Shown here piece by piece: positions 10,071 to 63,595 of a DNA stretch of 64,000 nt. The stretch is from Chiloscyllium plagiosum. Lineage: Eukaryota. The translations under genes were made by a program, and so were the position numbers. The stretch spans positions 18,514,542 through 18,578,541 of the forward strand of contig NC_057750.1 of NCBI RefSeq assembly GCF_004010195.1, given 5' to 3'. The notes below the pieces were generated by a model. That model did not search any database. It saw only the letters and a list, made by a program, of their open reading frames with translations, and had not been told where the DNA came from. Position 1 is the stretch's first letter. Each line of letters begins with the position of its first letter.

Positions 10071-10606
10071 ATGCATCTGTTGGTGGCTCTGTTCATCATG
10101 TTTCACTGTAAAGGTCTCGACAAATAAAACAAATCCTAACATCTAACTTTGTTTCTGCTGGCTGTCCTTCCCATCTGCTGTTTTTCTTTCTGTTGCCTTT
10201 TCTCTCAATTACACTTAATTTATCTTGTTTCTCTTATTTAATATTTTTTTCCTCCAAGACCCCAAGCGTTCAATTTCCTGACCTCTGCTGCTCCCTTGTC
10301 TTTGCCTCAGATGTGAAATCGCGGACAATCCACCAGACTCCCGCTGCCGTCTCCCAAATCCCAGAGACGAGAGTGAAGCTGCAGTGCCGTGTGGAGACAG
10401 CAAGTACCATCAACATGTTCTGGTACAGACAAGCCCCGGGAAAGGGGCTGCAGCTGATGTTTTACTCCAATATCGCAAATCGCGTGGATCCAGAGGGGCT
10501 GGTGGACGGTTTCACCGCCGAGAAACCAAATAACAACGAGTTTAACCTGGAGACCCCCAACTTGTGGTTGAACAATTCGGCCGTGTATTACTGCGCCTGG
10601 AGCATT
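10071..10606 (+). CDS. TRBV: TCR V segment V1 (TRBV30-like, subfamily A). Leader 10071-10107, intron 10108-10310, V exon 10311-10606
   Basis: Leader MHLLVALFIMFH, phase-1 GT..AG intron, V exon VKSRTIHQTP..LQC..MFWYRQAPGKGLQLMFYS..SAVYYCAWSI, followed directly by a 23-RSS. Confidence 0.92.
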
Positions 10607-10645
10607 CACAGTGACTCAGAGAGAGGGAGCAGCTCAACAAAAACC
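10607..10645 (+). promoter_or_regulatory. 23-RSS of V1
   Basis: CACAGTG + ACTCAGAGAGAGGGAGCAGCTCA (23 nt) + ACAAAAACC. Confidence 0.97.
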
Positions 10646-13150
10646 CCCAAAGGTTGCACGAAACAACCGCGAATGACATCACTCATCGCCTCAGCTCGTC
10701 TTGCAGGTGTCTGTATCGCAAACGGAGCATTTTGCTCTGTTAATTAATAGAATGACATTGTAAATGATGACATCAGAGAGGACAGGTTATAACTGACTGA
10801 GGGTTGGAATGCTCTCTACTAAACGGAAGCCAGATGAGGGAGAAAGAAATTAAATACTTTGTTCATTCGTGAAAGGAAATGTAAATGGGAAGAGGGTGTT
10901 GCATAAACATTAGCACTCCGACGCGGGCTGAATGGCCTCCTTTTGGGATATACATTACCTGCATTTAGAGTGAGCAGCGAATATACCAAAATTATGGCAA
11001 TTGATTTACTCCTCATAGGATGTCGATCTCAGTATCATTCGTTGCCCGCCCTTAGTTGCCCTTGAACTGAATGCCTTGATGGGCCATTTGAAAGGGCAGT
11101 TAAGAGTCAAATATATTCCTGGGGTCCGGAGGTAGACCAGATCGGATTGGTGACCCCAGATTTCATTTCCCAGGTGTATTCTTTTTTTTACAGCAAATCC
11201 ATAATAGAGTCATAGAGATGTACAGCATGGAAACAGATGAAGTGCTGTAGTGTGATTAAAACTAAAATCAGCAGAACACGAGCCAGGGCTTGGGGATTAA
11301 TAGCTCGGTTACATTATCACCACTCCACCAGCTCTCCAAAAATAATCTGTGGTATAGAAATACTGTTTGGCGAGGGAATCGCGCAATAACTAGTGCGGGA
11401 ATACACGTGACTGAACGGCTTTGAACATGGCCCTTTCTACACCTCGCATCTAGTGAATTTGGCAGGTATTTCAAGCGAGTGTCTTGACTTCTAATCAAAG
11501 ACATTTATCTAGAGCAGGAATGTGCAAAATAATCCACAAACCATTAACTGTTGTATGGACAAAAAGATGCTAATTAAGGATGAGTTACAGAAAGACAACG
11601 AACGAAAGATAGTTCAAGGGAGAAACGGAAATACGAAGGCTTGGTAATTTATCCAAAACTTGTGTTCAGGCAGAGTGACAGCAGAGAGAGTGGTAAGACT
11701 ATGTAACTGATGCGTCGTAGAGGAACAACAGGTGGCCATTCAACCTAGCGCACAGACACAGAAGGAAACCATTATCAGTCCGCGCTCACTTACACTGGAA
11801 CACACCCAGACATAGTTTTTTCTGTAATCAACATGTTATGACACAGTTCTGTGATCATTAAATTCTGAGCTGGGACTTCAACCCGGTCGGGACACTGCCA
11901 CTGAGCATCTCAAATTGGATTATTTGGCAAAAAAAAACACTTCGTCTTTCTGATTCGCGAATATTTAGATGGGCAAGTGGTAATCTTTTATTAACTATTC
12001 TTAGATGAACGTATCTGTCTCATTGGGAACTGGAAGGAAGGGAGCAGTCCGTACCCGTGTCTTAGACATTCTGAAAGATTGATGGGAAACTCGGAATGGT
12101 TTCCTACAATTTCAAAATTGTCAGCAAGAAGGCTGGGAGTGAGATGAGGAGAAATCTCTTTACTCAGAAGCAACAAAAAAAGCAAATTGCTGGAAAAGCT
12201 CGTCAGGTCTGGCAGCATCTGGGGCCAGAAACCAGAGTTAACATCGAGTGACCCTTCCCCAGAACTGATGGTAGCTGCGAAAATGGGGAGAGGGTGTTGC
12301 ATAAACATTAGCACTCCGACGCGGGCTGAATGGCCTCCTTTTGGGATATACATTACCTGCATTTAGAGTGAGCAGCGAACATACCAAAATTATGGCAATT
12401 GATTTACTCCTCATAGGACGTCGATCTCAGTGTCATTCGTTGCCCCCCCCTTAGTTGCCCTCGAACTGAATGCCTTGATGGGCCCCGTTTACATGCAGAA
12501 GATAGGCTGGGAGAAGGGGGAAAGGAGTAAACAGTAGGTGGGGATAGAGCCCAAAGAGAGAGACACGAACAGTTGGACTGACAGAAGAGTGGGTAACGAT
12601 CCGGCCAAGGGCTGAGTGAGGATTGTTATTGAATAATAATGTGTGTAATAGCTGACTATGTGTTAACAAGGCCTGGTGTGTGGGTGCTGGGGTGCTTCGG
12701 AGCAGAGCATTTAGAAGGTGATGATGCTTAAGTCCTAAAGTTGTTGCACTCCATATTGAGTCTCGAGGGCTGCAGGGTCCTCAAGCGGCAAATGAAGTAC
12801 GACTTTTCTCAAGTTGATAAGATTTGAAATGCGCTGCCTGGGAGAGTGCTGGAGCCAGATTCCTTAAGAGAAATCACAAGCTTTCTAAGCGCTGCCCCTT
12901 CTTTAGCTGAAATCCAACATCAGCATTAATGGGACGAGACAGACACTGTTCATCGTAAACTGGGAAGCTCTGCTAACAGGCAAAACAATCATTCCAGTTG
13001 GTTGAAGGGCTTGGGGGCGTGTCCAATCCTGTCCCTCCCCATACCGACCTGATATACCACTCAACAGCTTGGAAAGAGCGAGTTGGTTCTCCAGCAGACG
13101 CCAAGCTGCTGTGCACGCACCTTCTCTCTCATACAAGAAACTTCAAGGGA

Positions 13151-13604
13151 ATGATGATTCGGATCCTGGGTCTAATGACACTGTTACACTGTAAGGGATT
13201 TTCTCAAACAATGGTTGTGCTCATGAGCTTTTTATTCATCGCTATCTTTCTCTGTTGCCCTAATTGTCTCCATTTACTGACTTCATCTCCTCCCTGTCTC
13301 TGTTGCAGTCGTGGATTCGCAGATAATCCAACAAATTCCCGCTGCTGTCTCCAAAATTCCCGGGGAGAATGTGACTCTGAAGTGCACCGTGCAAGGGATC
13401 AGCAACACTTGGATGTATTGGTACAGGCAAAGCCCCGAAAAAGAGCCGCAGTACATGTTTCACTCCGCAGGTAGCAATATCGTAAGTCCCGATGAACCGG
13501 TGGACGGTTTCACCGCCGAGCGACCCGGTGACACCGAATTTAATCTGGAAGCCCTCAGCCTCCGAGTTGATCATTCAGCCGTGTATTTCTGCGGCTGGAG
13601 TCTT
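13151..13604 (+). CDS. TRBV: TCR V segment V2 (subfamily B). Leader 13151-13190, V exon 13309-13604
   Basis: Leader MMIRILGLMTLLH, GTAAG donor, TTGCAG acceptor, VDSQIIQQIP..LKC..WMYWYRQ..AVYFCGWSL. Confidence 0.9.
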
Positions 13605-13643
13605 CACAGTGACTCAGAGAGAATCAGCAGTTCAACAAAAACC
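13605..13643 (+). promoter_or_regulatory. 23-RSS of V2
   Basis: CACAGTG-23 nt-ACAAAAACC. Confidence 0.97.
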
Positions 13644-13721
13644 CCAAACTGCAGCTGGAAACAAAGCTGTTTCCTCTCACCGCAGATCTTTGAGTTTAAG
13701 GAGAGATCATGTTCAATAAAA

Positions 13722-14510
13722 GTCATAGCGTCACAGAGACGTACAGCACGGAAGCAGACCCTTGGGTCCAACTTGTCTATGTCGACCAGATATCCCAACC
13801 CAATCTAGTCCCACCTGCCAGCACCCGGCCTACATCCCTCCAAACCCTTCCTATTCATATACCCGTCCAGATGGCTCTTTAATGTTCCAATTGCACCAGA
13901 CTTCAACACTTCCTCTGGCAGTTCATTCCATACACGCACCACCCTCTGCGTGAAAATGTTGTCCCTCAGGTCTCTTTTATATCTTTCCCTTTTCACCCTA
14001 AACCTATGCCCTCTAATTCTGGACTCCCCCAACCCAGGAAAAAGACTTTGTCTACTTATCGTATCCATGCCTCTCGTGATTTTATAAATCTCTATAAGGT
14101 CACCCTCTCAGCCTCCGACGCTTCAGGGAAAACAGCCCTAGCCTATACAATCTCTCCCTGTAGCTCAAATCCTCCAACCCTGGCAACATCCTTGCAAATC
14201 TTTTCTTAACCCTTTCAAGTTCCACAACATCTTTCCGATAGGAAGGAGACCAGAATTGTACGCAATATTCCAACAGTGGCCTAACCAATGTCCTGTACAG
14301 CCGCAACATGACCTCCCAACTCCTGTACTCAGTACTCTGACCAATAAAGGAAAGCATACCAAACGCCTTCTTCACTATCCTATCTACCTGCGACTCAACT
14401 TTCAAGGAGCTATGAACGTGCACTCCAAGGTCTCTTTGTTTAACAGCACTTCCCAGGACCTTACCATTAAGTGTATAAGTCCTGCTCTGATTTGGTTTCA
14501 CAAAATGTCG
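13722..14510 (-). mobile_element. CR1 LINE 3' part
   Basis: RDLGVHVH..LYRTLVRPLLEYCVQFWSP..TQRVVRVWNELP; ATGAC tail. Confidence 0.92.
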
Positions 14511-14769
14511 CACCAAAAGTGAATGATGAAATTGAGTAGAGCTGGAGAAATTGCCAACAAAAGTGAACAATTCAGAGACGTTTTAACTTTCCGGAAAGCT
14601 GAATATGTCGCAGGTCTGAAGAATATCTATTCCAGACTCGACGGCAATAATTCTCTCCCCCTTTCGCTCCACAGACGTTGCCAGATCTGCTGAATTTCTC
14701 CAGCATTCTTGAGGTTTTGTTTCAGATTTCCAGCAATCTCAGTATTTTGCTTTTAATAGCTGAACGTAC

Positions 14770-15920
14770 ATAGACGCATGGAAGACAGAAGAGGCTCTTC
14801 GAGAGTGTTCCACCATTAATCACCATCGTGGTTGATCGTCCTACTGAATCGCCTAATCCTGTTTTCTTCCCATAACCTTTCATCCCATTCGCCTTCTCTT
14901 GAATACATTCAATGTTTTGACATTAATTTCTTTCCGTAATTCCACAGGCTCACCATTTTTTGTTGAAGAAATATCTGCTAATCTGCGTCCTAAATGGTCC
15001 AGTCCAAATCCTCAGAGTTTGACCCCTGACTCTGGACACACCCACCATCGAGAACATCCTCCCTGCACCTGCCCTATCTAGTCCTGTTAGAACTTTATAA
15101 GTGTGTATGAAATCCCCCCTCATTCCAATGAACTCCCGTGAAAACAACCCTAACCTAGTCAATCTCTCCTCATACGTCAGTCCCGCCATCCCCGGTATCA
15201 GTCAGGCAAACCTTCACTGCACTCCCTCGAGAGCAAGAGCATCCTTCCTCAGAAAAGGACACAAGAACTGCACACAAGGCCCTGCATAACTGCGACAACA
15301 TATTCCCGGTCTTTTACTCGAAACCTCTCGCTATGAAGACCATTTGCCTTGTTTACCGCCTGCTGCACCTGTGTGCTTACCTTCAGCAACTGGCGCACAA
15401 GGACACCCAGGTGCCGCTGCACACCCACCTCTCACTACTCACAGCCATTCAGGCAGTAAACCTGCCTTTTTGTTTTTGCTTTCCAAGTGAATAACCTCAC
15501 AGTTACTCAAATTATATTGTTTCTGCCATTAATTTTCCCACTCACCCAACCTGTCCAGACCATGCTGAAGGATCTCTTCATGCTCGTCACAGTTCACCCT
15601 TCCACCCAACTTGGTATCAACTGCAAACTTTGATATGTTACATTTTGTTCCCTCATCCAAATCATTAAAAATATGTGAATAGCTGGTCTTCTAGCACAAA
15701 TCCACGTTGCACCGCATTGTTTACTGCCTGCCAATTTGAAAAGGACCGAATAATTCTTACTATTTATGTCCTCTCTATCAATCACTTTTTCTATCCAGTT
15801 GAATACACCTCCCCCAATCGCATGTTCTTTAATTTTGCACAATGATCTCTTCTGCGGGACTTTGTCAAATTCTTTCTGAAAGTCCAAGACCACATCGACT
15901 AGCTCCCCCCTTGCTGCTTC
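14770..15920 (-). mobile_element. Older CR1 fragment, duplicated with the V3/V4 unit
   Basis: DFQKEFDKVP remnant; paralogous copy at 18145-19020. Confidence 0.8.
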
Positions 15921-16216
15921 ATCGAGAAATGAATATGAACAGCCGTCCTTATACATTTATTAGAAAAGGATTAGCATATAAAAGCGGAGAGATGTATTGC
16001 AGATTTATTAATCCCTCCTTTGGATGTTGCTGTTCCTGGCAGTTCCCTGTCAGCCAATTAGGAGATGCGGGGCGGGGCGGGGCGGGGCTGATCTGGTGAC
16101 GGGACTATCAATCTCACTGGCCGGGACCTGGATATCAACCAAAGTGAGGAACGGATATTTCCAATGTTTTCTTACCAGTGACCAAGGTCGTTTGAAAGGG
16201 AACCTTAAAATTGAAG

Positions 16217-16720
16217 ATGTATCTGTTCCTGGCTCTCTTCATGTTTCACCGTAAGGTTCTGCGCAAATACAAAACTCCTTTATCCATCATCTAGTTTGTT
16301 TCCACTGCCTCCTTCTTCCTGCTGGTTTTCTTTATACTCCCGCTTGTCTCTTTTTCACTTAATTTATCTCGTTTCTTTTTTTTTTCAATTTCCTGACCTC
16401 GGCCTCTCCCCATCTTTGCCTCAGATGTGAAGTCGCAGACTATCCACCAGACTCCCGCCGCCGTCTCCCAACTCCCAGGGACGAGAGTGAAGCTGCAGTG
16501 CCGTGTGGAGACAGCAAGTATCGTCAGCATGTTCTGGTACAGACCAGCCCCGGGAAAGGGGCTGCAGCTGATGTTTTACTCCAGTACTGCAAATCGCGTG
16601 GATCCAAAGGGGCCGGTGGACGGTTTCACCGCCGAGAGACCAAATAACAACGAGTTTAACCTGGAAGCCCTCAGCCTGTTGGTGAACACCTCGGCAGTGT
16701 ATTACTGCGCTTGGAGTCTA
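16217..16720 (+). CDS. TRBV: TCR V segment V3 (subfamily A). Leader 16217-16250, V exon 16425-16720
   Basis: Leader MYLFLALFMFH, GTAAG/CCTCAG splice sites, VKSQTIHQTP..LQC..WYRP..AVYYCAWSL. Confidence 0.9.
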
Positions 16721-16759
16721 CACAGTGACTCAGCGAGAAGGAGCAGCTCAACAAAAACC
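16721..16759 (+). promoter_or_regulatory. 23-RSS of V3
   Basis: CACAGTG-23 nt-ACAAAAACC. Confidence 0.97.
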
Positions 16760-18144
16760 CCCAAAGGTTGCACGAAACAACCGCGAATGACATCACTCAT
16801 CGCCTCGGCTCATTGTGCTGGTGTCTATTTTGCAAACGGAGCATTTTGTTCTGTTAATTAAGAGCAATGGGTGAAAGGCAGAACACAGGAGATGCATAGA
16901 AAGACTTGTCAGGGATGACGTCAGAAAGGACAGGTTATAACTGACCAAAAACTGGGAGGTTGGAATGCTCTCTCCAGAATCGGCCGATGCGCCCTGATCA
17001 AGATTTAAAAACATTTACGCGAGTTGTTAGGGAAGTCGTAACGAATAGATTTCCACTTTTCTACGTGGGTGTGGGGTTTGAAATGGGACGCATTTGTTAA
17101 AGACAATGAGTGAGAAATGCAATGGGATATTCAGGAGATTTCTTTACCCTGGCAGTGATGTGAGTGTGGGACTTGCTTTCATGGTTGGAGCGACTGTCGT
17201 AGCTAGGGACGCCAGATGAGGGAGAATGAAATGAAATCATTTGTTGATGGATGAAAGTTAATGTTAATGGGAAGAGAGTGATGCATAAACAGCACACTCA
17301 GAGGCAGGTTGAGCGGCGTGCGTGTGTGATGTACATTTACAGCGAGGAGCAGAAATATCAAAATTATAGGAATTAATTTATTCCTCACAGGATGTAGACC
17401 TCAGTGTCATTTCTTACTCATCCTTAGTTACCCTTGAACTGAATGCCTTACTAGGCCATTTGAAGGGGCAGTTAAGGGTCAACCATATTGGTGTGGGTAT
17501 GGAGTCACATGTCGACCAGACTGGGTATGTGACCCCATATGTTATTTCTCCAGTGTATTCTTTTTACAGCAAAGCCATGATGGTTAAGATCATGATCATT
17601 GAGACAAGCTGTCATTTTCAAATTTCATTCATTGAATTGTTGTGGTGAGATTTAAACTTAAGTCAGCAAAGCACGAGCGGGGGCTCGGGGATTAATAGCC
17701 TGGTTACATGATCATCACTTCACCAGCTCCCCAAAAACAATCTGTTGTAAGGAAACAGCTTGGCGAGGGAGTCGCGCAATAATTAGTTTGGCATAAGCGT
17801 GACTGAATGATTCTGAACATGGCCCTCTCTACACTTTCCCTCGAGTGAGCTTGGTAAATCTTTCAAGCGAGTGCCGAGATATGTAATGAAGACAGTTCTC
17901 TAGAGCGGGAATGTGCAATCACTTTTGTATGGACAAAAGATGCTGATGAAGAAGACAGCGACACAACGAAGGAAAGAGAAACCAAAGCAGGAAAGGAAAT
18001 AAGAATTCTTGGTATTTCTTCCAGAGATGGTGTTCAGACAGCAGACGGAGCGCTACTACCATGTAATTGATCAGTTGGAGAGGAACAGTAGGTGGCCATT
18101 CAACCTGTTACACAGGCACAGAAGGAATCCATTAACAACCAGCT

Positions 18145-19020
18145 CTGCCCAGTCCTGTTAGAATGTTATAAGTCTCTATGAGATCTCCCCTCATTCCCAT
18201 GAACTCCAGTGAAAACAATCCTAACGCAGTTAATCTCTTCATTCATCAGTCCGGAATCAGCCTGGCAAACCTTCACTGCACTCCCTCGAGAATAAGAGCA
18301 TCCTTCCTCAGAAAAGGATACAAAAACTGCACATAATATTCCAGGTATGGCTTCACCAGGGCCCTGTATAACTGCAACAACACATCACCGGTCTTTTACT
18401 CAAAACCTCTCGCTGTGAAGACTATTTGCCTTCTTTACCGCCTGCTGCTCCTGCGTGCTTACCTTCAGCGACTGGTGTACAAAAACACCCAGGTGCCGCT
18501 GCACACTTCCCCCTCACTATTTGCAGCCATCCAGACAGTAAGATGCCTTTTTGTTTTTGCTTTCCAAGTGAATAACCTCACAGTTATTCAAATTATATTG
18601 TTTCTGCCATTAATTTGCCCACTCACCCAACCTGTCCAGACTATACTGAAGGATCTATGCATCCTCGCCTCAGTTTATTCTCCCACCCAAATGGTATCAA
18701 ATGTAAACTTTGAGATGTTACATTTTGTTCCCTCATCCAAATCATTGATATATATTGTGAATAGCTGGGGTCCTAGCACCGATTGGTGGGACACTCTTTA
18801 CTGCCTGCCAATCTGAAACTGACCCATTACTTCTATGTTCTATGTTCATATTCTTTGAGTCCTATCTGCCAACCAGTTTTTTTTTTATCCATCTGAATAC
18901 ACTTCCCCCAATCCCAGGCACTTTAATCTTGCATAATCAACTCTTACGCGAGATTTTGTCAAATGTTTTCTGAAAATTCAAATTTACCACATCGACCAGC
19001 TCCCCCTTGTCTGCTTCATG
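18145..19020 (-). mobile_element. Older CR1 fragment (paralog of 14770-15920)
   Basis: Colinear similarity to 15080-15920. Confidence 0.8.
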
Positions 19021-19302
19021 TCTGCTTCACCGAGAAATACGTTTATTAGAAAAGGGGTAGCGTGTAAAAGTGGAGAGCCTTATTGCAGATTTATTAATCC
19101 CACCTTTGGATCTTGCTGTTCCTGGCACTTCCCCGTCAGCCAATTAGGAGGTGAGGAGCGGGGCTGATCTTGAGACGGGGCGGGACTATCAATATGACTG
19201 GGCGGGACCGGGATGTCACTCAAAGTAAGGAGCGAAGCGATATATTTCCAATGGTTTCTTACCAGTGACCAAGGTTTTTGAAAGGGAACTTTAAATTTGA
19301 AG

Positions 19303-19820
19303 ATGTATCTATTGCTAGCTCTCTTCATCATGTTTCACCGTAAGGGTCGGCATATATACAAAACCTTACCCAACATCTAACTCTCTTTTCACTGGCTCTC
19401 CGTGTCTCCGGCTGTTTTTCCCTATTATCTCTCTTTTACTGAATTCATCTTGTTTCTTTTTTTTAACTGCAAGACCACACGTGTTCAATTTTCTAACCTC
19501 TGCCTCTTCCTATCTATTCCCCAGATGTGAAATCTCAGACAATCCACCAGACCCCCGCCGCCGTCTCCCAAATCCCAGAGACGAGAGTGAAGCTGCAGTG
19601 CCGTGTGGAGACAGCAAGTACCATCAACATGTTCTGGTACAGACAAGCCCCGGGAAAAGGGCTGCAGCTGATGTTTTACTCCAGTATCACAAATCACGTG
19701 GATCCAAAGGGGCCGGTGGACGGTTTCACCGCCGACAGACCAAATAACAACGAGTTTAACCTGGAGACCCTCAGCCTTTTGGTGAACAACTCGGCCGTGT
19801 ATTACTGCGCCTGGAGCATT
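19303..19820 (+). CDS. TRBV: TCR V segment V4 (subfamily A; open frame but aberrant RSS). Leader 19303-19339, V exon 19525-19820
   Basis: Leader MYLLLALFIMFH, GTAAG/CCCCAG splice sites, intact V exon ending AVYYCAWSI. Confidence 0.9.
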
Positions 19821-19862
19821 CACAGTGACTCAGAGAGTCAGTGACTCAGCTCTACAAAAACC
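19821..19862 (+). promoter_or_regulatory. Aberrant RSS of V4 (26-bp spacer)
   Basis: CACAGTG + ACTCAGAGAGTCAGTGACTCAGCTCT (26 nt) + ACAAAAACC. Confidence 0.9.
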
Positions 19863-20799
19863 TCAAAGGTTGCACGAAACAACCGCGAATGACATCACTC
19901 ATCGCCTCGGCTCATCGTGCAGGTGTGTATGTTCAAACGGAACATTTTGTTCTGTTAATTAAGAGCAATGGGTGAAAGGCAGAACACAGGAAGACTTGTA
20001 AAGATGACATTAGAGAGGACAGGTTATAACTGACTGGAGGTTCTATAGAATCGGCTGAGGTATCCGGATAAACCTTAAAAAGATTATCGTGGGTTGTTAG
20101 GGAATTCGTAACGAATAAATTTCCACTTTTCTGCGTGGGAGTGGGATTTAAAATTTGTTAAAGACAATGAGTGTGGAATGCCATGGGATATTCAGGAGAT
20201 TTCTTTATCTGGCAGTGATGAGAGCGTGGGACTTGCTTTCATGGTTGGAGCGACAGCTGTTACCAGGAAGCCAGATGAGGGAGAATGAAATGAAATAATT
20301 TGTTGATGGATGAAAGTTAATGTTAATGGGAAGACAGTGATGCATAAACAGCAGCACTCAGACGCGGGCTGAGTGTACATTCCACCCATTTACAGTGTGG
20401 AGCAGAAATATCAACATTATGGGAATTAATTTATTCCTCACAGGATGTAGATCTCAGTGTCATTTGTTACTCATCCTTAATTGCCCTTGAACTGAATGCC
20501 TTACTAGGTCATTTGAAGAGGCAGTTAAGGGTCAACCATATTGGTGTGGGTGTGGACCAGACTGGATTGGTGACCCCATATTTTATTTACCCAATGTATT
20601 CTTTTTACAGCAAAGCCATGATAGTTAAGATCACGATCGCTGAGACAAACTGTCATTTTCAAATTTCATTCATTGAATTGTTGTGGTGAGATTTAAACTT
20701 AAGTCAGCAAAGCACGAGCGGGGGCTGGGGGATTAATAGCCCGGTTACATGATCATCACTTCACCAGCTCCCCAAAAACAATCTGGTAAGGAAACACAG

Positions 20800-21014
20800 G
20801 GCGAAAGTGAGGACTGCAGATGCTGGAGATCAGATTCAAGATTAGTGTGGTGCTGGAAACGCACAGCAGGTCGGGCACCAACGGAGGAGCAGGAAAATCG
20901 ATGTTGTGTGCAGAAGCCCTTCATCGGCCCTTCCTGATGAAGGGCTTTTGCCCGGAACGTCGATTTTCCTGCTCCTCGAATGCTGCTTTGCTTTCCCAGT
21001 ACCACTCTAATCTT
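20800..21014. mobile_element. Palindromic Penelope-derived mini-element
   Basis: Inverted arms; degenerate 15-bp TSD GGTA[AT]GGAAACA[CT]AG (20785-99, 21015-29); empty paralogous site near 17745. Confidence 0.8.
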
Positions 21015-22582
21015 GGTATGGAAACATAGTTTGACGAAGGAGTTACGCAATAATTAGTTCGGCATTCGCATAACGGAATGACTTTGAACTTGGCCCTCTC
21101 TTCTGTTGGCCTCTCGTGAGTTTGTACCTTTCAAGCGATTGCCTAGATTTGTAATGAAGACGGTTCGCTAGAGCAGGAGTGTGCAAAAGATTCCACAAAT
21201 CACTTTAGTCATTAAGTGTTGTATGGACAAAAGATGCTGATGAAGAAGACAGCGACACAACGAAGGAAAGAAAAATCAAAGCAGGAAAGGAAATAAGAAT
21301 TGTTGGTATTTCTTCCAGAGATAGTGTTCGGACAGCAGAGGGAGCGCTACTACCATGTAATTGATCAGTCGGAGAGGAACAGCAGATGGCCATTCGACCT
21401 GTTACACAGGAACAGAAGGAACTCATTTACAACCAGCGCTCTTTTACACTGGAACGCATCCAGATATTGTTTCCTGTTTAATCAATCTGTTATGACACAC
21501 CTCAGTGTCCATTAAGTCCTGAACTGGGACTTGATCTCGGTAGTGACACTGCCACTGAGCAGCTCAGAAACGATTAATTAGCAAAAAAGAAATCGACTAT
21601 TAGCTTTTCTGATTCGCGAATATTCAGGAGGCAAACAGACCTTTTATTAGCTTTTGTTAAATGAACATCTCTTTCGGAACTGAAAGGAGGGGAGCAGTTC
21701 GTACATGTGTCTTAGAAAGCCTGAAAGATTGATGGGAAACTCGGAATGTTTTCCAACAATGCCAAAGTTATCTGCAGGCGAGCTAGGAGTGGTATGATGA
21801 GAAACGTCTTTACTCAGAAACGAAAAGGAAAACCAAAAGTTGCTGGAAAATTTCTGCAGGTCTAGCAGCATCTGCGGAGAGAAATCAAGAGTTAACGTTT
21901 CGGGTGGAGTGGCCCTTCCTCGGAACTGATGATAGCTAGAAAAATGTCGGTTTATATGCAGAAAGTAGAGTGTGGAGAGGGGTTAAGGAGTAAACGGTAG
22001 GTGAGGATAGAGACCAAAAAAAGAGAGAATAGTAGCACAGACAAAGGAGTGGATAACAATCCAGTCAGGGGGTGAATTGTTATCAATGAGGACTGTTATT
22101 GAATAACAATAGGTCGTGTGTAACAGCAGACTATGTGTTAACAAGGCCTGGTGCGTGGGTGCTCGGGTAATGATATGGAAGCGCTTAGACCCTCAAGTTG
22201 TTCACTTGGAGTTGTTAGGATTTGAAACGTGCTGTCTGGGAGAGTGGAGTTGGTGGATTCCTTAAGACTGTTCAAAGAGGAGCTGATATATATATATACT
22301 TGCAAGCGATGAATTTAAAAGTCTACAGAGATTGGATTAAATTTTTGGTTTAAGAAAGGCAGATTTTAACAGAATGAGGCAGATACTGTCCATGGTAAAC
22401 TGGGAAGGTCTGCTAACAGGTAAAATACGCATGTTAGTTCCGATTGGTTGAAGGGTCTGGGGGTGTGTTCAATCCATCCCTCCCCTTAAAACCTTGATGT
22501 ATCCCTCAACAGCTTGAAAACAGTGGACTGGTTCTCCAGAAGACGTCGAACGCTGTGCCTGCAAACGGAAAATTTCAAGCAA

Positions 22583-23032
22583 ATGATGAATCTGATCTTG
22601 GGTGTAATGACTCTGTTTCACTGTAAGAGATTTTCTCAAATATGCGTTTTGTTTATGAACTTTCTTTTATTGCTACATGTCTTTGCCCTAATTGTCTTCA
22701 TGTACCGACCTCATCTTCTCCCTGTCTCTGTTCCAGTCGTGGATTCGCAAATAATCCAGCAGATTCCCGCCGCTTTCTCCAAAATGCCAGGGGAGATGGT
22801 CGTTTTGAGGTGCACAGTACAAGGCACCAGCAACCCTTACATGTACTGGTACAGACAACGTCCAGGGAAGGAGCCGCAGTTCATGTTTTACTCCACAGGT
22901 CGCAGTATCGTAACTCCAGGCGAAACGGTAGACGGTTTCAAGGCCGATCGACCGAGTAACACCGAGTTTAATCTGAAATCCCCCACCCTCCTCGTCAATC
23001 ATTCGGCTGTATATTTCTGCGCCTGGAGTCTT
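22583..23032 (+). CDS. TRBV: TCR V segment V5 (subfamily B). Leader 22583-22622, V exon 22737-23032
   Basis: Leader MMNLILGVMTLFH, GTAAG/TTCCAG splice sites, VDSQIIQQIP..LRCTVQGTSNPYMYWYRQ..AVYFCAWSL. Confidence 0.92.
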
Positions 23033-23071
23033 CACAGTGAGTCAGAGAGAGGGAGCAGCTCAACAAAAACC
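23033..23071 (+). promoter_or_regulatory. 23-RSS of V5
   Basis: CACAGTG + AGTCAG.. (23 nt) + ACAAAAACC. Confidence 0.97.
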
Positions 23072-23504
23072 CCAAACAGCAGCTGGAAGCAAAGATGTTT
23101 CCTCTCACCGCAGACCTTTGACATTAAGAGATCAGTTCCAATGAAAGTAGATAATGAAATTGAGTAGCGCTGGAGAAATTGCAAACAAAAGTGAACAATT
23201 CTGAGAAGATTTAACTTTCAGGGAAACTGAATATGTCTCAGATCTGGAGACGTTATACTAGACTCGAAGCATCAACCCTCCCCCTTTCTCCCCACAGACG
23301 TTGCCGAATTTCTCTAGCATTCTATGCTTTTTCAGATTTCCAACATCCCCTCAGTATTTTGATTTTATTGGGTGAACATATCGGCCTCGTTGAGAAATTC
23401 GTTTTCCTGCAAAATGAATATCATGTAAAAGTGGAGAGCTGTATTGTAGCGCCATGGTGAGACCAGGTCTGGAGTACTGATTGCAGTCTTTTCCTTAGTT
23501 GAAA

Positions 23505-23732
23505 AAAGGTGAGGTGGAACAGAAATGCACCTGGAATGTACTGGTACAGACAATCCCTCAGAAATGAGCTACAGATTGTACTTTACTCTGATGCTGCACA
23601 CCATTTCAATCCAAAGGAAGAGCATAAGCGGTTTCTCTGTCAAGCAACTGAGTGACTCTGAGTTCAAACAGATGTCCCCCACCATCCCCCCTCCTGGCGA
23701 AAGCCCCATCTGGAGTTGTCACAGTGACTCAG
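23505..23732 (+). pseudogene. Decayed V relic with orphan heptamer
   Basis: GAGGTGGAACAGAAATGCAC..ATGTACTGGTACAGACAA..AGTGACTCTGAGTTCAA..TGGAGT; CACAGTG (23720-26) followed by ACTCAG, rest of spacer and nonamer deleted. Confidence 0.8.
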
Positions 23733-24169
23733 GGCAGGAAACACCTGTTAACGATAAAACAAGGCGCAGCAACATTTTGTTTCTCTTCTGAAGACTCCAA
23801 AATAAAGGTTATTTTGAAAGCGAGGGAATAGATTTAGAGTCTCTGGCAAGCAGGGTAATGAAGATGACTAAGGGAGATCTGAACTGGAACATTTAACAGT
23901 CAAAAGGGATGTATAGACGGTGCTCTAGGGCCATGAACAAAAACGATACTGGTACATGGTGGGACAGGAATGCAAGTACAGGGGAAGCCATTTGGTTCTT
24001 CTGTACTGTATCTGAAATACCTCCATTCACCAAGTCACCCATTATTTACACGTGAATAGTACATGAGGCTGACCCAGCTAGCACCGAGCCGTCTCATGGA
24101 GTAGGCAGAACCCTTGATACCCTCATTTATCTTTTTTTAAATGAGAAACAGGATGTCTGACACCCCATG

Positions 24170-25255
24170 TTCTTTTTTTCTTTATTTTCCCCCACACCAC
24201 TGCCTAACAGCGATAGTGCTTATTGCTCCCCAGCACCCATATTGTGTGTGTGCAGGTGTAGGATGCAGTGAAGAACAACAAGTGTGTAAATCTTTATTTA
24301 CATTCCACCACCAGGAAGAAGGGAAACATCAGAGTGGCCGGTGACAAGCATTGCCCTTCTCAACAAAGGGCAAAGCTGCGTGATAAAAAAGGTGAAGGAG
24401 AGGGCAGGGATTAAATCAAAATAGAGTTGGAGGAAGAAATAAAACCCTCCACTCCCTGCTGTACCCACCTTTCCCTGGACAGCTCAAATGTGTTAATGGG
24501 CGCTGTGTGCTCCTTCTTCAGGGACACACTTGCTCGAACGTAACCACAGAAGACGGGGAGGCAACCCCTTCTAAGGCCTTCTGCTTGGGCCTGTTTTGAC
24601 CAGTTTGGCCAGGCCCAGGAGCAGACCCACGAGGAGGTCTTGTGACCTACCTTCCCACCTCCACACTGCGTGCCCAAAGATCTGGAGCGATTATTTGATA
24701 TATTGTTTCAGAACCCCTGACTCTCCTTACTAATTTTTTCTTTCCTTTTCTTCTAGTTTTAAAAGCCAAACACCGGTATGCTTATTTTTCTCAGCACCGT
24801 GTCGTATGTGTGCAGGTGTCAGACATAGTGAGAAACCATAAATGTGTAAGTCTTTATTTATATTTCACCACCAGGAAGAAAAGAGACAGCCAAGTGGCCA
24901 CTGACAAGCAGTGCCCTTCTCAGAGGGAAATGCTGCATGATCAAACAGTGAAGGGGATGGCAGGGAGTAAATCAAAATAGAGTGGGAGGGGGAAATAAAT
25001 CACTCCACTCCCTGTGGTGCCCACATCTCCCTGAAATCTCCAGGGTGTTAGTGGACACCACGTGCTCCTTCTTCAGGGACACCCGGACTCTGACATAAGA
25101 GGGGCAGGCAACTGGCCCTAACGAGCCCCTCCATGGCCGGCTGCCTGAATCTGTTTATGGCCAGTTTGGCCAGGTCCAGGAGCAGACCCACAAGGTGGTC
25201 CTCTGACCTACCCTCCCCACTCCGCATTGGGTGCCTAAAGATCAGGAACGATACC
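24170..25255 (-). mobile_element. Two tandem L1-Tx1-like 3' ends
   Basis: Minus-strand LVGLLLDLAKLAINRFRQ / GYVRASVSLKKEH..FELSRERW; T-rich tails at the left ends. Confidence 0.7.
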
Positions 25256-25724
25256 TTAATTTTAAATTTTCTTTTAAAAAGGAATACCACTTAACAAAAC
25301 TGACTTTCAAAACTAGCCAGTTTAGGAATCATGTTCTCCCCGCCATTAAAAAAAATCAGAAACCAACTGCAGCAGTAATACACTGATTGTGGTCTAGCAA
25401 GCACAGAATCAGTTTGCTAAACCAAGGAGAGTCTACCTTTTGGTTTTTTCGGTCAGCCAGGGCTTTCCTGATTGTCCCAGGTTAACAGTGCACACTGACT
25501 GTGGCCCAGCCAGCGTGGAGTCCATCCCCTTCCTGACACAATTGGGGAGTCCATGACACTAACAGAGCTTCCTCAGACCAGCTCTCAGAGAGCAGAACCC
25601 CTGACAAGCCTGTTCTTTTTTTTCTCTAGAAAAGAAAAGCCAGAAAACAATCACAATAAACAATTAAGAAGAAACAAAAAACTTCAAAGTAAACTCTTCC
25701 TCTGCCTGGGAAGACACCAAAAGT

Positions 25725-29484: not shown

Positions 29485-29966
29485 ATGTATCTGTTATTGA
29501 GCTTCACGATTGTATTTCAACGTAAGCGATTCTCGATGCAACCATTTTTTTTTAGCACCCATCGTTTACCATTTATTCCTTGTTTCGCTTCCAAATTCTT
29601 TCTTTCCTTCTCTGCTGCACCAGAACAATGTCCCTGTTTATTGATCTTTGCCTCTTCCGATTTCTTTCTCAGACGTGAATTCCGCGACGGTCCTCCAGAC
29701 TCCCTCAATTGTCTCCAAATCTATTACCGAGAGAGTGGTGTTGAAATGCACGGTGGAGGGAAAGAGTACAGGTACCATGTACTGGTACAGACAAAATCCG
29801 GGGAAGGAGCTACAGCTGATGTTTTATTCTACATATGCACCCAGCGTGAATAAAGGGGAGGCGGCGGGTAATTTCACAGCCGAGCGATCGACTGGCTCCG
29901 ACTTTAACCTGGAGTCTTCCAGCCTAAAGGCAAATGACTCGGCATGGTATTACTGCGCCTGGAGTG
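29485..29966 (+). CDS. TRBV: TCR V segment V6 (subfamily C). Leader 29485-29521, V exon 29673-29966
   Basis: Leader MYLLLSFTIVFQ, GTAAG/TCTCAG splice sites, VNSATVLQTP..LKC..MYWYRQ..SAWYYCAWS. Confidence 0.9.
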
Positions 29967-30005
29967 CACAGTGACTCAGAGAGAAAGAACAGCTCAACAA
30001 AAACG
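29967..30005 (+). promoter_or_regulatory. 23-RSS of V6
   Basis: CACAGTG-23 nt-ACAAAAACG. Confidence 0.95.
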
Positions 30006-31606: not shown

Positions 31607-32094
31607 ATGATATCTCTTCCTGCCTCAGATTTTCCTATTTCACCGTAAGTGAACCTTCCAGGTATTGACTTATTAGGGAACCCTATATTCTTTCTATTTC
31701 CCTCTCTCAGTGGCCCAAAAAGTGACCAGTTACTGATCTCTTCCTGTCTGCCACAAACAGAAACTCACCGACAATCGGTCAGATTTCCCTCTCTGTCTCC
31801 AGGTTTCACGGGGACAGTGTGGAGGTGAACTCTACTCTGGAGGGAGACACTTTTATCCCTGTCATGTACTGGTACAGTGAAGCCCCGGGGAAGGAACCGC
31901 ACCGAATGTTTTAGTCTATCGGTACCAATGTGGTGCAAGGAGCGGGGTCTATGGGCGGTTTCTCTGCCAAGTGAGCGAAGGACAAGGAGCTCAACATGGA
32001 GTATCCCAGCCTGAAGGCAGATGACTTGGTCGTGTACTACTGCGCCTCCAGTGTTCACGGTATCTCAGAGCGAAGGAGCAGCTCGACTAAAAAG
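31607..32094 (+). pseudogene. TRBV: TCR V pseudogene ending in YYCASS
   Basis: Frameshifted leader 31607-31644 with GTAAGT donor; first Cys replaced by Ser; in-frame stops TAG 31912-14 and TGA 31972-74; VYYCASSV; degenerate RSS CACGGTA-23-ACTAAAAAG (32056-32094). Confidence 0.9.
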
Positions 32095-36697: not shown

Positions 36698-37216
36698 ATG
36701 TATCTGTTCTTCGGATTGGTGATTTTATTTTACTGTAAGACAATTCTTAAACATGATAGATCTAATTCATAACCTTTACATTTTTTCTACCTTTCAAAGC
36801 ATTTCTTTCTGTCTTTCTCTTTTGTTCTGTCTTTTCTTTTGCCCTCTGTTACAGTTTCTCTTTCTGTCATTTCACTCAATTTACAAATAATCCCAACATC
36901 CGTTTCTCGCTCTTTTCCAGATGCAGACTCACAGACTATCCACCAGACTCCCGCTGTTGTCTCCAGCTCTCCCGGGGATGAACTGGAACTGAAATGCACC
37001 GTTCAGGGTACTAGTAACCCTAACATGTACTGGTACAGACAAGACTCAGGGAAGGGGCTACGATTTATGTTTTACTCCACAGGCACAGCTCACAAAAATC
37101 CAGACGAAGCTGTGGACGGTTTCACCGCCAAGCGGCCCAGTGACTCTGCGTTCAACCTGCACACTTCCAGCCTTCGAGTGGATCATTCGGCCGTGTATTA
37201 CTGCGCCTGGAGTATT
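36698..37216 (+). CDS. TRBV: TCR V segment V7 (subfamily D; closest to TRBV30). Leader 36698-36734, V exon 36921-37216
   Basis: Leader MYLFFGLVILFY; ADSQTIHQTP..LKCTVQGTSNPNMYWYRQDSGKGLRFMFYS..AVYYCAWSI. Confidence 0.93.
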
Positions 37217-37255
37217 CACAGTGACTCAGAGAGAGGGAGCAGCTCAACAAAAACC
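37217..37255 (+). promoter_or_regulatory. 23-RSS of V7
   Basis: CACAGTG-23 nt-ACAAAAACC. Confidence 0.97.
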
Positions 37256-41992: not shown

Positions 41993-42528
41993 ATGCATCG
42001 GTTCCTCGCTCTGTTCATCACCTTTTACTGTAAGGGTCTTTATAAATAAAGAAATCTTGAATGCAATTACCTTTCTGTTTGGTAACATTCAATGCGATCC
42101 CTCTTTCTCTGCCCTTTCAATTTAATGAATTGATTTTATTTTTTTTTTGGGTATATTTTCTTCTTTCATTCCTTCTCCACGTCCCGAGTGTCTGAATTTT
42201 CTGATCTCTTTCTTTCCCCATGCTTTCCTCAGGTGTGAAATCGCAAACTGTCAATCAGTATCCCGCCGCAATCTCCAAACTTCCTCGACAGAGAGCAGAA
42301 CTACTATGCACGGTGAAGGGAGCAAGTAGCCTTCGTAGGCACTGGTACAGGCAAGCGCCAGGAAAGGAGCTGCTGCTGATGTTTTCCTCTATGGTTGCAC
42401 AACGTGTGACTGAAGAGGCGGCCGCTGACGGTTTCACCGCCGAGCGACCCAGTGACTCGACGTTTATCCTAAAGTCCCCCAGCCTGAAGGAGAATCACTC
42501 GGCTGTTTATTACTGCGCCTGGAGTCTT
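41993..42528 (+). CDS. TRBV: TCR V segment V8 (divergent; A-type promoter and leader). Leader 41993-42029, V exon 42233-42528
   Basis: Leader MHRFLALFITFY; VKSQTVNQYP..LLC..RRHWYRQAPGKELLLMFSS..AVYYCAWSL. Confidence 0.88.
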
Positions 42529-42567
42529 CACAGTGACTCGGAGAGATGGAGCAGCTCAACAAAACCC
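42529..42567 (+). promoter_or_regulatory. 23-RSS of V8
   Basis: CACAGTG-23 nt-ACAAAACCC (one A fewer than consensus). Confidence 0.92.
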
Positions 42568-45677: not shown

Positions 45678-46139
45678 ATGTACCAGTTGCTGACTCTCAC
45701 GATAGTATTACAATGTGAGTGATTTGTGAAGCAACGATTTTTGCTATCGCCGACCCTTTATCATGTCCTTTCTTGTAATTTCTTTCGTATTTTCTTTCCT
45801 TCTCTGTCCCTGTTTATGACCTCTTCCTCTTGCGATTTCTTTCTCAGACGTGAACTGCGCGACTGTTCGCCAGACTCCCCGAATTGTTTCCAAACTTGGA
45901 GAGGAAGTGGAACTGAAATGCACAGTGGAGGGGCAGAGTACGGGTACCATGTACTGGTACAGACAAAACCAGGGAAAGAAGCCGCAGCTGATGTTTTATT
46001 CTGCAGCTGTACCCAGCGTGAATGCAGAGGGAGAGACGGACGGTTTCACCGCCAAGAGAGCGAGTGGCTCTGACTTCAACCTAAAGACCCCCAGCCTCCG
46101 AGCTAATCACTCCGCCGTGTATTACTGTGCCTGGAGTTT
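45678..46139 (+). CDS. TRBV: TCR V segment V9 (subfamily C-related). Leader 45678-45714, V exon 45848-46139
   Basis: Leader MYQLLTLTIVLQ, GTGAGT/TCTCAG splice sites; VNCATVRQTP..LKC..MYWYRQ..AVYYCAWS; FR1 one codon shorter than in paralogs. Confidence 0.9.
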
Positions 46140-46178
46140 CACAGTGGCTCAGAGAAGGGGAGCAGTTCAACAAAAACC
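46140..46178 (+). promoter_or_regulatory. 23-RSS of V9
   Basis: CACAGTG-23 nt-ACAAAAACC. Confidence 0.96.
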
Positions 46179-49950: not shown

Positions 49951-50417
49951 ATGTATCTGTTGCTGAATGTCATGGTTGTATTTCAATGTAAGTGCAACAT
50001 ATTTTATTACTTGTCCTTTACTATCTCTTCCTCCTCATTTCATAATTTCTTTCTTTCCTTCTCTGCTGCACCAGGTCATTTTCCCTTTCATTGATCTCTT
50101 CCTCTAACGATTTTTTCTCAGACGTGAACTCAGTGACGGTCCGACAGACTCCTTCAGCTGTCTCCAAATCTATGAAAGAGAGCGTGGAGTTGAAATGCAC
50201 GGTGGAGGGAAAGAATACAGGTGCTATGTACTGGTACAGACAAAACCCGGGGAAGGAACTACAACTGATGTTTTATTCTCCGGTTGCGTCAACTGTGAAT
50301 AGAGAAGAGGCGGAGGATGGTTTCAACGCCGAGCGACCGAGTGGCCCCGACTTTAACCTGGAGTCCTCCAGCCTGAAGGCAGATGACTCGGCCGTGTATT
50401 ATTGCGCCTGGAGTATT
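49951..50417 (+). CDS. TRBV: TCR V segment V10 (subfamily C). Leader 49951-49987, V exon 50122-50417
   Basis: Leader MYLLLNVMVVFQ; VNSVTVRQTP..LKC..MYWYRQNPGKELQLMFYS..DDSAVYYCAWSI. Confidence 0.92.
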
Positions 50418-50456
50418 CACAGTGAGACAGAGAGAGGGGGCAGCTCAACAAAAAAC
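50418..50456 (+). promoter_or_regulatory. 23-RSS of V10
   Basis: CACAGTG-23 nt-ACAAAAAAC. Confidence 0.93.
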
Positions 50457-61959: not shown

Positions 61960-62085
61960 ACATCTCCGACTGTCTGAATTTTCTGATCTCTTTCTTTCCA
62001 CATCTCTTTATAAGCTGTCAAGTCGCAGACTACCTATTGGACTCGTGTTGCAATCTCAAAATTTCCTGGACAGTGTGTAAAACAC
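61960..62085 (+). pseudogene. 5' V fragment (intron end plus FR1), V8-like
   Basis: TGTCTGAATTTTCTGATCTCTTTCTTTCC matches the V8 intron end; after AG at 62013-14 it reads VKSQTTYWTRVAISKFPGQ, then homology stops. Confidence 0.7.
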
Positions 62086-62224
62086 ACCAAATGGTTATCA
62101 AAAGCTAAAGAAGAGTTATTGAACTTCAATGTCACAAGTGAAAAATGCAAGTCACAGAGGTGAGTTGGGGTGATCTACAATCATGAGATATTAATGGAGG
62201 TTAGCTCAATGCCAAATGTTGGAT

Positions 62225-62550
62225 CATAGAATTCCCCTACAATGTGAAAACCGTCCATTTGACCCAACAAGCTCACATCGATCCTCTGAAGAGCAACCCA
62301 CCCAGACCCATTCCCGTACCCTATTACTTGACATTTACCCCTGACCAATACACGTAACCTACACATTCATGAACACTATGGGAAATTTAGCAGGGTCAAT
62401 TCACCTATGCTGCACATATTTAGATTGTGGGAGGAAACTAGAGCTCCGTCAGGAAACCTACACAGACACCGAAGGGAATGTGCAAACTTCACAGACAGTC
62501 ACCCGAGGCTGGAATCGAACCCGCATCTCTGGTGCTGTGAGATAATAGTG
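62225..62550 (-). mobile_element. tRNA-derived shark SINE
   Basis: Same family as 35381-35713. Confidence 0.75.
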
Positions 62551-63057
62551 CTATCCCAAAAAGAATTCATATATCAGAGAGTAGTTGAAATGCTGAAAGA
62601 CATAAAGTGAATTCAGGAGATCTGTAGCACACTTTCGTTTAGCTCCAAAAGACGTGAATGAAGCTATAAGATCGTATAACACATAAGGATTCTTGCCTTC
62701 AACCAAAATATAAAACTGGTTTGAAAGTCAGGCAATTACGGAAGATATGATTGATTTAATAGCTCTTTTTGGTAATAATCTGAAATCCAATGGCGTAGTT
62801 CCTTCAAACGATGGAAGTTCGAACTTCTCTTTAAATGTGGATAGTCTTTATTTGGATGATAATGTCAGAGTTAAGGAGGGCAGAAAGCATCAATAAGAAG
62901 GAATTGTCGAAGCCTTATTCAGAGGGAGGGGCGTGTCCAAAGACACATCACTTGCTAGGTTTTCATCAATATAATAAATGAGCAGACTGGGACTTCCAGG
63001 AGTCCACACTTCTATTTATGCTCCACTGTGTACTCGGCGAAAGATTTTAAGTTTAAA

Positions 63058-63595
63058 ATGTATCTGTTCCTGGGATTGATGATCTCGTTTTATTGTAAGT
63101 GAATTAGTAAAAACAGTAAATCTGATTAATAACCTTGTTCGACATTTTTCTTCCGACAATATAATTCTGCCTTCGTCTTTCTCTGTATATTTTTGCCCTA
63201 CTGTCGTTCTACAACTTGAGGGTCTATTTTGTTCTCATTTCCCGAAAGTCAAATTTACTAACTTTCCACCCCCACACCCGTTTCTCTTTTTTTTCCCAGA
63301 TGCAGACTCACAGACTATCCACCAGACTCCCGCTGTTGTCTCCAGTTCTCCCGGGAAAGAACTGAAACTGAAGTGCACTGTTCAGGGCACTAGTAACCCT
63401 GACATGTACTGGTACAGACAAGACTTCGGGAAGGGGCTACGATTTATGTTTTACTCCAGGAGTACAACTCACATAGATCCAGAAGAGCCAGTGGATGGAT
63501 TCACCGCCAAGAGGCCGAGTGACTCTGAGTTCAACCTGCACACTTCCAGCCTTCGAGTGGATCACTCGGCCGTGTATTACTGCGCCTGGAGTATT
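63058..63595 (+). CDS. TRBV: TCR V segment V11 (subfamily D, paralog of V7). Leader 63058-63094, V exon 63300-63595
   Basis: Leader MYLFLGLMISFY; ADSQTIHQTP..LKCTVQGTSNPDMYWYRQ..AVYYCAWSI. Confidence 0.93.

What the first reader, a model, noticed from the sequence alone, without database searches (positions are those of the whole stretch)
10071..63595. Expanded family of TRBV30/TRBV31-like V genes, a lineage that is single-copy and inverted in mammals
Seen: all 11 intact V genes end in C[AG]WS. V7 reads SQTIHQTP..CTVQGTSNPNMYWYRQ..GKGLRFMFYS..RP..CAWS after a very short leader ending xxS-QTIHQ. Recalled from memory, human TRBV30 reads VRSQTIHQWP..CTVEGTSNPNLYWYRQAAGRGLQLLFYS..SRP..CAWS and lies alone, inverted, 3' of C-beta. 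Inference: the clade predates the shark/bony-fish split, CDR1 (GTSNPN) has been conserved since then, and here it radiated into at least 4 subfamilies. The array may itself lie inverted relative to D-J-C.
Basis: partly seen in the sequence, partly recalled or inferred. Interest (0 to 1): 0.7.

Follow-up and report, generated by a model that had tools for sequence, protein, structure and literature searches.

The report
Shark TRBV30-type T-cell receptor array
These eleven shark T-cell receptor beta gene pieces belong to the same old lineage as the single back-to-front piece of mammals and also sit back-to-front behind a constant gene, which would date that odd layout to before sharks and bony animals split, although the gene map itself is already tabulated for a sister species.

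Summary
Observation confirmed. Eleven open-frame V genes on the + strand end in C[AG]WS; 10 of 11 have a 23-bp RSS; they form 5 subfamilies. They group with donkey, crocodile and reedfish TRBV30 (100/92; 90/86 with the CAWS columns removed), and a single shark-only clade is rejected (AU p=0.014). GTSNPN is exact in only 1 of 11.

The window is the left arm of a mirror-shaped bamboo-shark TRB locus with two head-to-head D-J-C-beta clusters. The array lies 3' of and inverted to cluster A, and 5' of and in line with cluster B. Two transcript contigs join CAWS ends to cluster-A J segments, likely by inversion; a RefSeq model joins V11 to cluster B.

Much is known. The same map is in Giorgetti 2023 Supplementary Table 3 (C. 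punctatum), and multi-copy inverted TRBV occur in tuatara and newt. Eight searches found no paper placing shark genes in the TRBV30 clade. This scan already noted the mirror arm with the same reading (e1-9994225).

Side find: a second, unlinked TRB locus (C46) with no CAWS V gene matches the nurse-shark cDNAs. Whether the inversion is ancestral is open (about 55%).

The parts
10071..10645 (+). V1: leader, V exon 10311-10606, 23-RSS at 10607; subfamily 1
13151..13643 (+). V2 (CGWS): exon 13309-13604, 23-RSS at 13605; subfamily 2
16217..16759 (+). V3: exon 16425-16720, 23-RSS at 16721; subfamily 1
19303..19862 (+). V4: open exon 19525-19820, RSS with a 26-bp spacer (likely weak or inactive); subfamily 1
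22583..23071 (+). V5 (CDR1 GTSNPY): exon 22737-23032, 23-RSS; subfamily 2; a 240-nt contig of run X12 lies on the exon
23521..23634 (+). V fragment (pseudogene remnant)
29485..30005 (+). V6: exon 29673-29966, 23-RSS at 29967; subfamily 3; a contig of run X12 enters at the splice acceptor
31762..32055 (+). broken V (two in-frame stops, poor RSS)
36698..37255 (+). V7 (CDR1 GTSNPN, the copy most like mammalian TRBV30): exon 36921-37216, 23-RSS; subfamily 4
41993..42567 (+). V8: exon 42233-42528, 23-RSS; subfamily 5
45678..46178 (+). V9 (CAWSF): exon 45848-46139, 23-RSS at 46140; subfamily 3; one of two best matches to a V-D-J-C(A) transcript contig
49951..50456 (+). V10: exon 50122-50417, 23-RSS; subfamily 3
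63058..63634 (+). V11 (CDR1 GTSNPD): exon 63300-63595, 23-RSS; subfamily 4; joined to a cluster-B J and C in RefSeq model XP_043536992.1

Best explanation
The window is the left arm of a shark T-cell receptor beta locus: a tandem array of TRBV30-lineage V segments lying behind, and back-to-front to, one D-J-C-beta cluster and in line with a second, and the segments likely join the near cluster by inversion and the far cluster by deletion. Shown: the genes, their 23-bp signals, the two head-to-head clusters, strand and order, the tree position, and CAWS-type V ends joined to cluster-A J segments in transcript contigs. Inferred: that those ends come from + strand genes (short matches); that the V11-cluster B RefSeq model reflects a real rearranged mRNA; that an inversional join to A leaves B free for a second attempt, whereas a deletional join to B removes A (180-233 kb); and that the locus arose by inverted duplication of a unit V-D-J-C plus a 3' inverted array, so that the mammalian layout is ancestral to jawed vertebrates (this last step about 0.55).
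For: Best single-domain PDB matches are human TCR-beta chains 5xov_J and 3hg1_E (90.9 and 89.2 bits; the next listed natural TCR-beta V domains score 63.7). The TRBV30 label for these two is recalled, but their motifs match the donkey protein named TRBV30. 11 of 11 window genes score higher against donkey TRBV30 than against 5 other references. Trees: 45 of 45 CAWS rows on one side of a 100/92 branch, with 3 unlabelled fish domains inside; 25 of 25 at 90/86 with the CAWS columns cut and a mixture model; an all-shark clade is rejected, p-AU 0.0144. Layout: C-A minus strand at C41:18.642 Mb, C-B plus strand at 18.778 Mb, no N-gap between them, D cores GGGACAG, 7 J each plus one J-like remnant in B. 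21 of 23 intact CAW-type V lie in the two outer arrays. The same order and strands appear in C. punctatum, where 10 of the first 11 V are marked transcribed. Joins: cluster A; cluster B. In C. punctatum the reported VJ combinations (265 and 177) exceed same-strand V times 7 J (126 and 119; my arithmetic).
Against: Alignments are only 92-97 columns, and support without the CAWS columns is unstarred (90/86). The AU group was named after I had seen the first tree. Only one mammalian TRBV30 was in the trees. The transcript evidence is two contigs from one run of unrecorded type, matched over 15 and 30 nt. The 30-nt end fits V7 and V11 but also one minus-strand V with a broken heptamer; the 15-nt end fits V9 and a middle + strand V. 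6 of 11 intact non-CAW V also lie in the outer arrays, and 2 CAW V lie in the middle in line with their cluster. The count 265 also exceeds all 35 V times 7 J (245), so that number includes something other than simple germline pairs. The first read-laying was swamped by repeats and showed no junctions.
Confidence: 0.8

Rival explanations
1. The clade is ancient but the inverted position is not. This array is an ordinary 5' V array for cluster B and became 'inverted behind C' only when a shark-lineage inverted duplication placed cluster A between them; the tetrapod inversion arose separately.
For: The array is in line with cluster B and a RefSeq model joins V11 to it. Non-CAW V share the outer arrays (6 of 11) and 2 CAW V are central and direct. 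A catshark gene model strings a CAWS V, a J and a C on one strand (P0111). Pike and salmonids have head-to-head clusters with V in the middle (PMC10464911, passages), so such duplications recur.
Against: Both halves independently show the layout central V, D-J-C, 3' inverted array rich in this clade. The same clade is the 3'-inverted one in amniotes (PMC11754216). Bichir and sterlet also have opposite-strand V just 3' of C genes, though I could not test their clade.
Confidence: 0.35
2. The likeness to TRBV30 is convergence or a tree artefact, and the shark genes are a shark-only V family.
For: Short alignments; 51% is the donkey gene's highest identity to any row; GTSNPN is exact in only 1 of 11.
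Against: The clade persists with CAWS removed; an all-shark clade is rejected; exact GTSNPN is shared by shark V7, bichir, reedfish, donkey and the human chain; intermediate lineages are present.
Confidence: 0.06
3. The orientation is an assembly artefact across the N-gaps between the array and C-A, or the genes belong to TRA, TRD, TRG or an Ig locus.
For: Three N-gaps lie between the array and the C-A C1 exon. C1-exon searches of PDB did not rank TCR-beta first.
Against: An independent C. punctatum assembly gives the same order and strands. The D core, J segments and the transmembrane exon are beta-type and match shark proteins named TCR-beta. The genes fall away from the TRA/TRD/TRG/Ig rows.
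Confidence: 0.02

Closest known systems
Mammalian TRBV30 (human), TRBV31 (mouse), TRBV28 (opossum); PMC2275272 passages
   Same: Same V clade, QTIHQ start, CAWS end, GTSNPN in V7, position 3' of and inverted to a C-beta gene.
   Different: Single copy in mammals; here 23 intact CAW-type genes of 34 intact V in the locus, CDR1 diversified, a second cluster usable in line, and no EPHB6 found on the scaffold.
Chiloscyllium punctatum TRB locus, Giorgetti et al. 2023 (PMC10322711), Supplementary Table 3 (part 1 of 5 read) and Table 1
   Same: Same order and strands: + V array, minus C1-J-D, central V, plus D-J-C2, minus V array. RSS offsets of 14 and 15 match V6 and V9. Genes are marked transcribed.
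   Different: A coordinate table only; the main text has 0 hits for 'orientation' or 'TRBV30'. It lists one scaffold and no second locus.
3'-inverted TRBV clade of amniotes and amphibians, and squamate TRE (PMC11754216 and PMC12698447, passages)
   Same: One clade of inverted V; multi-copy in tuatara (5) and newt (three clusters, expressed); multiple inverted genes described as common outside mammals.
   Different: Those passages trace it to amniotes, amphibians and salmonids. The only shark input was three nurse-shark entries, and no shark member is mentioned in the passages seen.
Head-to-head TRB loci of pike and salmonids (PMC10464911, passages)
   Same: Two D-J-C clusters in opposite orientation with V genes between them.
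   Different: There V genes sit in the middle and almost all in line with their cluster; here most V lie outside, and the two C exons are only about 48-50% identical.

Membership tests
TRBV gene segment | Leader exon, intron, V exon with Cys-Trp-Cys core | tested here: met
   11 of 11
TRBV gene segment | 3' RSS with 23-bp spacer | tested here: met
   10 of 11; V4 has 26 bp
TRBV gene segment | Linked D-beta (12/23 RSS, GGGACAG core), FGxG J segments and C-beta | tested here: met
   two clusters 64-200 kb beyond the window end; C regions group among shark TCR-beta C
TRBV gene segment | Expressed as V-D-J spliced to C-beta | tested here: met
   one contig CAWS-V, D, J, C-A and one CAWS-V, J; RefSeq model V11-J-C-B; orthologues marked transcribed. 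Assignment to a single gene is ambiguous.
TRBV30/TRBV31 (3'-inverted) clade | Groups with mammalian TRBV30 to the exclusion of other TRBV | tested here: met
   one mammalian member (donkey); human and mouse genes were not in the trees
TRBV30/TRBV31 (3'-inverted) clade | CAWS end | tested here: met
   10 CAWS and 1 CGWS
TRBV30/TRBV31 (3'-inverted) clade | CDR1 of GTSNPN type | tested here: inconclusive
   exact in 1 of 11, GTSNP in 3 of 11; Pro kept in 16 of 16 bony-vertebrate members
TRBV30/TRBV31 (3'-inverted) clade | Lies 3' of C-beta in inverted orientation | tested here: met
   met for cluster A; in line with cluster B
TRBV30/TRBV31 (3'-inverted) clade | Rearranges by inversion | tested here: inconclusive
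   best matches of both cluster-A joins are + strand genes, but over only 15 and 30 nt
Mammalian TRB layout | Single inverted V | tested here: not met
   21 intact CAW-type V in two outer arrays
Mammalian TRB layout | Flanked by EPHB6 and trypsinogens | tested here: not met
   0 of 15 Eph ligand-binding matches on C41. The two trypsin-family places listed on C41 are single-exon domains; only 150 of 296 candidates were scored. The right flank holds CUB exons and a single-exon protease.
TRA/TRD/TRG/Ig V | Groups with alpha, delta, gamma or Ig V | tested here: not met

The most novel reading that the evidence does not exclude
The first jawed vertebrates already had TRBV30-type segments parked back-to-front behind C-beta. 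Bamboo sharks doubled that unit head-to-head and made this clade about two thirds of the locus's V repertoire, used in both directions, while keeping a second TRB locus free of it. The nurse-shark cDNAs used in published trees come from that second locus, which is why the shark members were missed.
Probability: 0.5. Interest if true: 0.6.

Novelty: new member of a known kind. Interest (0 to 1): 0.45.

Why it matters
The inverted V behind C-beta is a long-noted oddity whose age and purpose are open (PMC11754216 says a fitness advantage is unclear). Shark members move the clade, and probably the layout, to the base of jawed vertebrates. In this locus every outer V can reach one cluster by inversion and the other by deletion, so existing repertoire reads could measure the cost or benefit of inversion directly. 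The second locus means shark TCR-beta repertoires built on one locus's C primers may be incomplete.

Tried and rejected
Laying four runs on window 10000-29999 was dominated by repeats and showed no V(D)J junction. The look-up of sequencing runs listed no holder on record as RNA; single-cell run X19 laid 0 reads on the J region. C1-exon searches against PDB did not separate C-beta from Ig C, so beta identity rests on D, J, the transmembrane exon and named shark homologues. Alignment A3 placed the C exon on V columns and was not used. The profile search of representatives returned mostly multi-V gene models; 34 stored proteins carried a CAW-type domain. No V was found in 100 kb left of the window or 90 kb right of the right arm. 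The C tree did not resolve which shark C genes are orthologous beyond close relatives, so the duplication is undated. The clade of the opposite-strand V in bichir and sterlet could not be tested because the table has no sequences. PMC3222143 is not held; PMC7677710 has no TCR hits in its main text. I considered and rejected misassembly and a non-beta locus (see rivals).
Full report
Observation. The window (G000:C41:18514542-18578541) holds 11 open V exons on the + strand, from the leader ATG at 10071 to the coding end at 63595. Ten end CAWS and one CGWS. All have a leader exon and splice sites; 10 of 11 have a near-perfect 23-bp RSS, and V4 has a 26-bp spacer. They form 5 subfamilies at 75% nucleotide identity. 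Exact GTSNPN occurs in 1 of 11 and GTSNP in 3 of 11. Homologue tables name the closest proteins as Chiloscyllium, bamboo sharks.

Identity of the V genes. The best single-domain PDB matches to V7 are two human TCR-beta chains at 90.9 and 89.2 bits; the next listed natural TCR-beta V domains score 63.7. That these two are TRBV30 is recalled, but their motifs match a donkey protein named TRBV30. CAWS-type relatives came from other sharks, rays, reedfish and bichir (named TRBV30), sturgeon, gar, tarpon, amphibians, skink and crocodile. All 11 window genes score higher against donkey TRBV30 than against five other references.

Trees. From 169 domains I dropped 54 (broken, short or near-duplicate; listed). 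In the 115-row tree (97 columns, LG+G4) all 45 CAWS rows, including all 11 window genes, lie on one side of a 100/92 branch together with three unlabelled fish domains. With the CAWS columns cut and a mixture model (56 rows, 92 columns, 8 window genes) the clade remains at 90/86, unstarred. Forcing all 30 cartilaginous-fish TRBV rows together costs 42 log units, p-AU 0.0144; I named that group after seeing the first tree. The outgroup rows were not one side of a branch, so the deep root is unsure. V7 has a short branch near the base of the clade. The CDR1 proline is kept in 16 of 16 bony-vertebrate members but in 3 of 11 window genes, so the shark expansion came with CDR1 change.

Locus. I read 654 kb around the window. 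In window-continued coordinates: a + V array at 10-94 kb; cluster A on the minus strand (C exon 127 kb, 7 J, D 143 kb); central V at 184-235 kb on both strands; cluster B on the plus strand (D 244 kb, 7 J plus a remnant, C exon 264 kb); and a minus V array at 316-456 kb. No N-gap lies between the two C1 exons; three gaps lie between the window's array and the C-A C1 exon. The two C exons are about 48-50% identical. Of 50 V-like exons, 34 are open with a near-canonical RSS: 23 CAW-type (12 left, 2 central, 9 right) and 11 other (3 left, 5 central, 3 right). Each half therefore reads central V, D-J-C, then a 3' inverted array rich in the TRBV30 clade. Each outer array is also in line with the far cluster. 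No Eph ligand-binding exon is on C41 (0 of 15), and the right flank is a CUB plus single-exon protease gene.

Use of the genes. On the cluster-A J region, run X12 gave two joins. A 645-nt contig runs CAWS-type V end, D-A core, J, then the first bases of the C-A exon, so it is spliced. Its 15 V bases fit V9 and one central + strand V best. A 97-nt contig joins a V end directly to another J. Its 30 V bases fit V7, V11 and one minus-strand V whose heptamer is broken, and none of 10 orphan or unplaced V ends. Joins of + strand V to the minus cluster need inversion. RefSeq model XP_043536992.1 joins V11 through a D-like stretch to a cluster-B J and C; I infer, without the nucleotide record, that it rests on a rearranged mRNA. 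Two further X12 contigs lie on V5 and V6. This is thin evidence: one run, short matches.

Mechanism. Each V offers a 23-RSS to the 12-RSS side of a D. With cluster A (79-132 kb away, opposite strand) the join inverts the intervening DNA and keeps cluster B. With cluster B (180-233 kb, same strand) it deletes the interval, including cluster A. That geometry follows from the sequence and the 12/23 rule. A second-chance role for B and an origin by inverted duplication of a mammal-like unit are inferences.

What is known. Supplementary Table 3 of PMC10322711 (part 1 of 5 read) lists the C. punctatum TRB locus with the same order and strands and marks 10 of the first 11 V as transcribed. This removes the misassembly worry and means the map is in print. 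The main text has no hit for 'orientation' or 'TRBV30'. Its Table 1 reports 265 and 177 VJ combinations for the two C genes, more than same-strand V alone allow (126 and 119), though 265 also exceeds all V times 7 J (245). PMC11754216 (passages; supplement rows) shows the 3'-inverted TRBV as one clade with five copies in tuatara, extends it to salmonids and amphibians, and used three nurse-shark entries. PMC12698447 (passages) calls multiple inverted V common outside mammals. PMC2275272, PMC5278385, PMC10464911, PMC12529555, PMC12227049, PMC13433984, PMC3964593, PMC6795676 and PMC11372145 were seen as passages only. Eight searches found no paper placing shark V genes in the TRBV30 clade. The library lacks most subscription papers, PMC3222143 was not held, and the elephant shark supplement was not read. 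The scan's note e1-9994225 reached the same reading for the right arm and pointed me to the table; it is not independent support.

A second locus. Contig C46 (8.25-8.36 Mb) holds 13 V-like exons, none CAWS, plus a D, 5 J and an intact third C-beta. That C groups with four nurse-shark cDNA clusters at 99/100, and their V genes group with C46 V. I infer that this explains why shark TRBV30-type genes were missed in published trees. A broken, much more divergent C-beta-like gene lies behind it; its best stored match is a catshark model that also carries a CAWS V.

Verdict. It is a new member of a known clade in a locus already mapped in a sister species. The new points are the clade assignment in sharks, the likely two-way use, and the second locus. 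Interest 0.45.

Noticed in passing
G000:C46:8251571-8363499 (L084-L095): Second, unlinked TRB locus: 13 V-like exons (none CAWS), one D, 5 J, intact C-beta 70% identical to nurse-shark cDNA C regions; not in the C. punctatum table.
   Followed up: partly
G000:C46:8384754-8391093, minus strand (L097-L098): Broken, deeply diverged C-beta-like gene (C1 and transmembrane exons) facing the C46 C gene. It is 46-55% identical to the C of catshark model XP_072356531.1, which carries a CAWS V and is only about 35% identical to other shark C-beta. Possibly a fourth C-beta lineage, loosely parallel to squamate TRE.
   Followed up: partly
L060:4875-5190 (G000:C41 about 19.722 Mb): Orphan CAWS-type V about 750 kb from the locus, with an altered WYRQ motif and no J within about 25 kb on either side; a single-exon trypsin-family ORF lies 17 kb away.
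   Followed up: partly
L052:2515-3058, L054:5127-5441, L055:9039-9575 (minus strand): C1r/C1s/MASP-like gene (two CUB exons, single-exon protease; family name from domain order, recalled) flanks the locus; the protease exon is split over two frames in this assembly.
   Followed up: no
L008:5346-5375: A transcript contig joins an untrimmed V end directly to a J with no evident D or N bases; one low-depth contig only.
   Followed up: no
L078-L080, L101-L104 (unplaced contigs): Eight further CAWS-type V ends with RSS; several are only 76-90% identical to placed copies, so the right arm's gaps likely hide more genes.
   Followed up: partly
L019:4659 and 6125: Two cluster-B J segments with identical coding sequence 1.5 kb apart; the matching pair is marked untranscribed in C. 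punctatum.
   Followed up: no
L049-L050 (within 20 kb left of the window): LTR-retroelement remnants (integrase, protease and env-like Pfam hits); observed only.
   Followed up: no
PMC10322711 Supplementary Table 3, bichir and sterlet sheets: Opposite-strand V genes sit just 3' of bichir TRBC2, TRBC4 and TRBC5, and about 25 sit 3' of sterlet TRBC1; their clade is untested.
   Followed up: no
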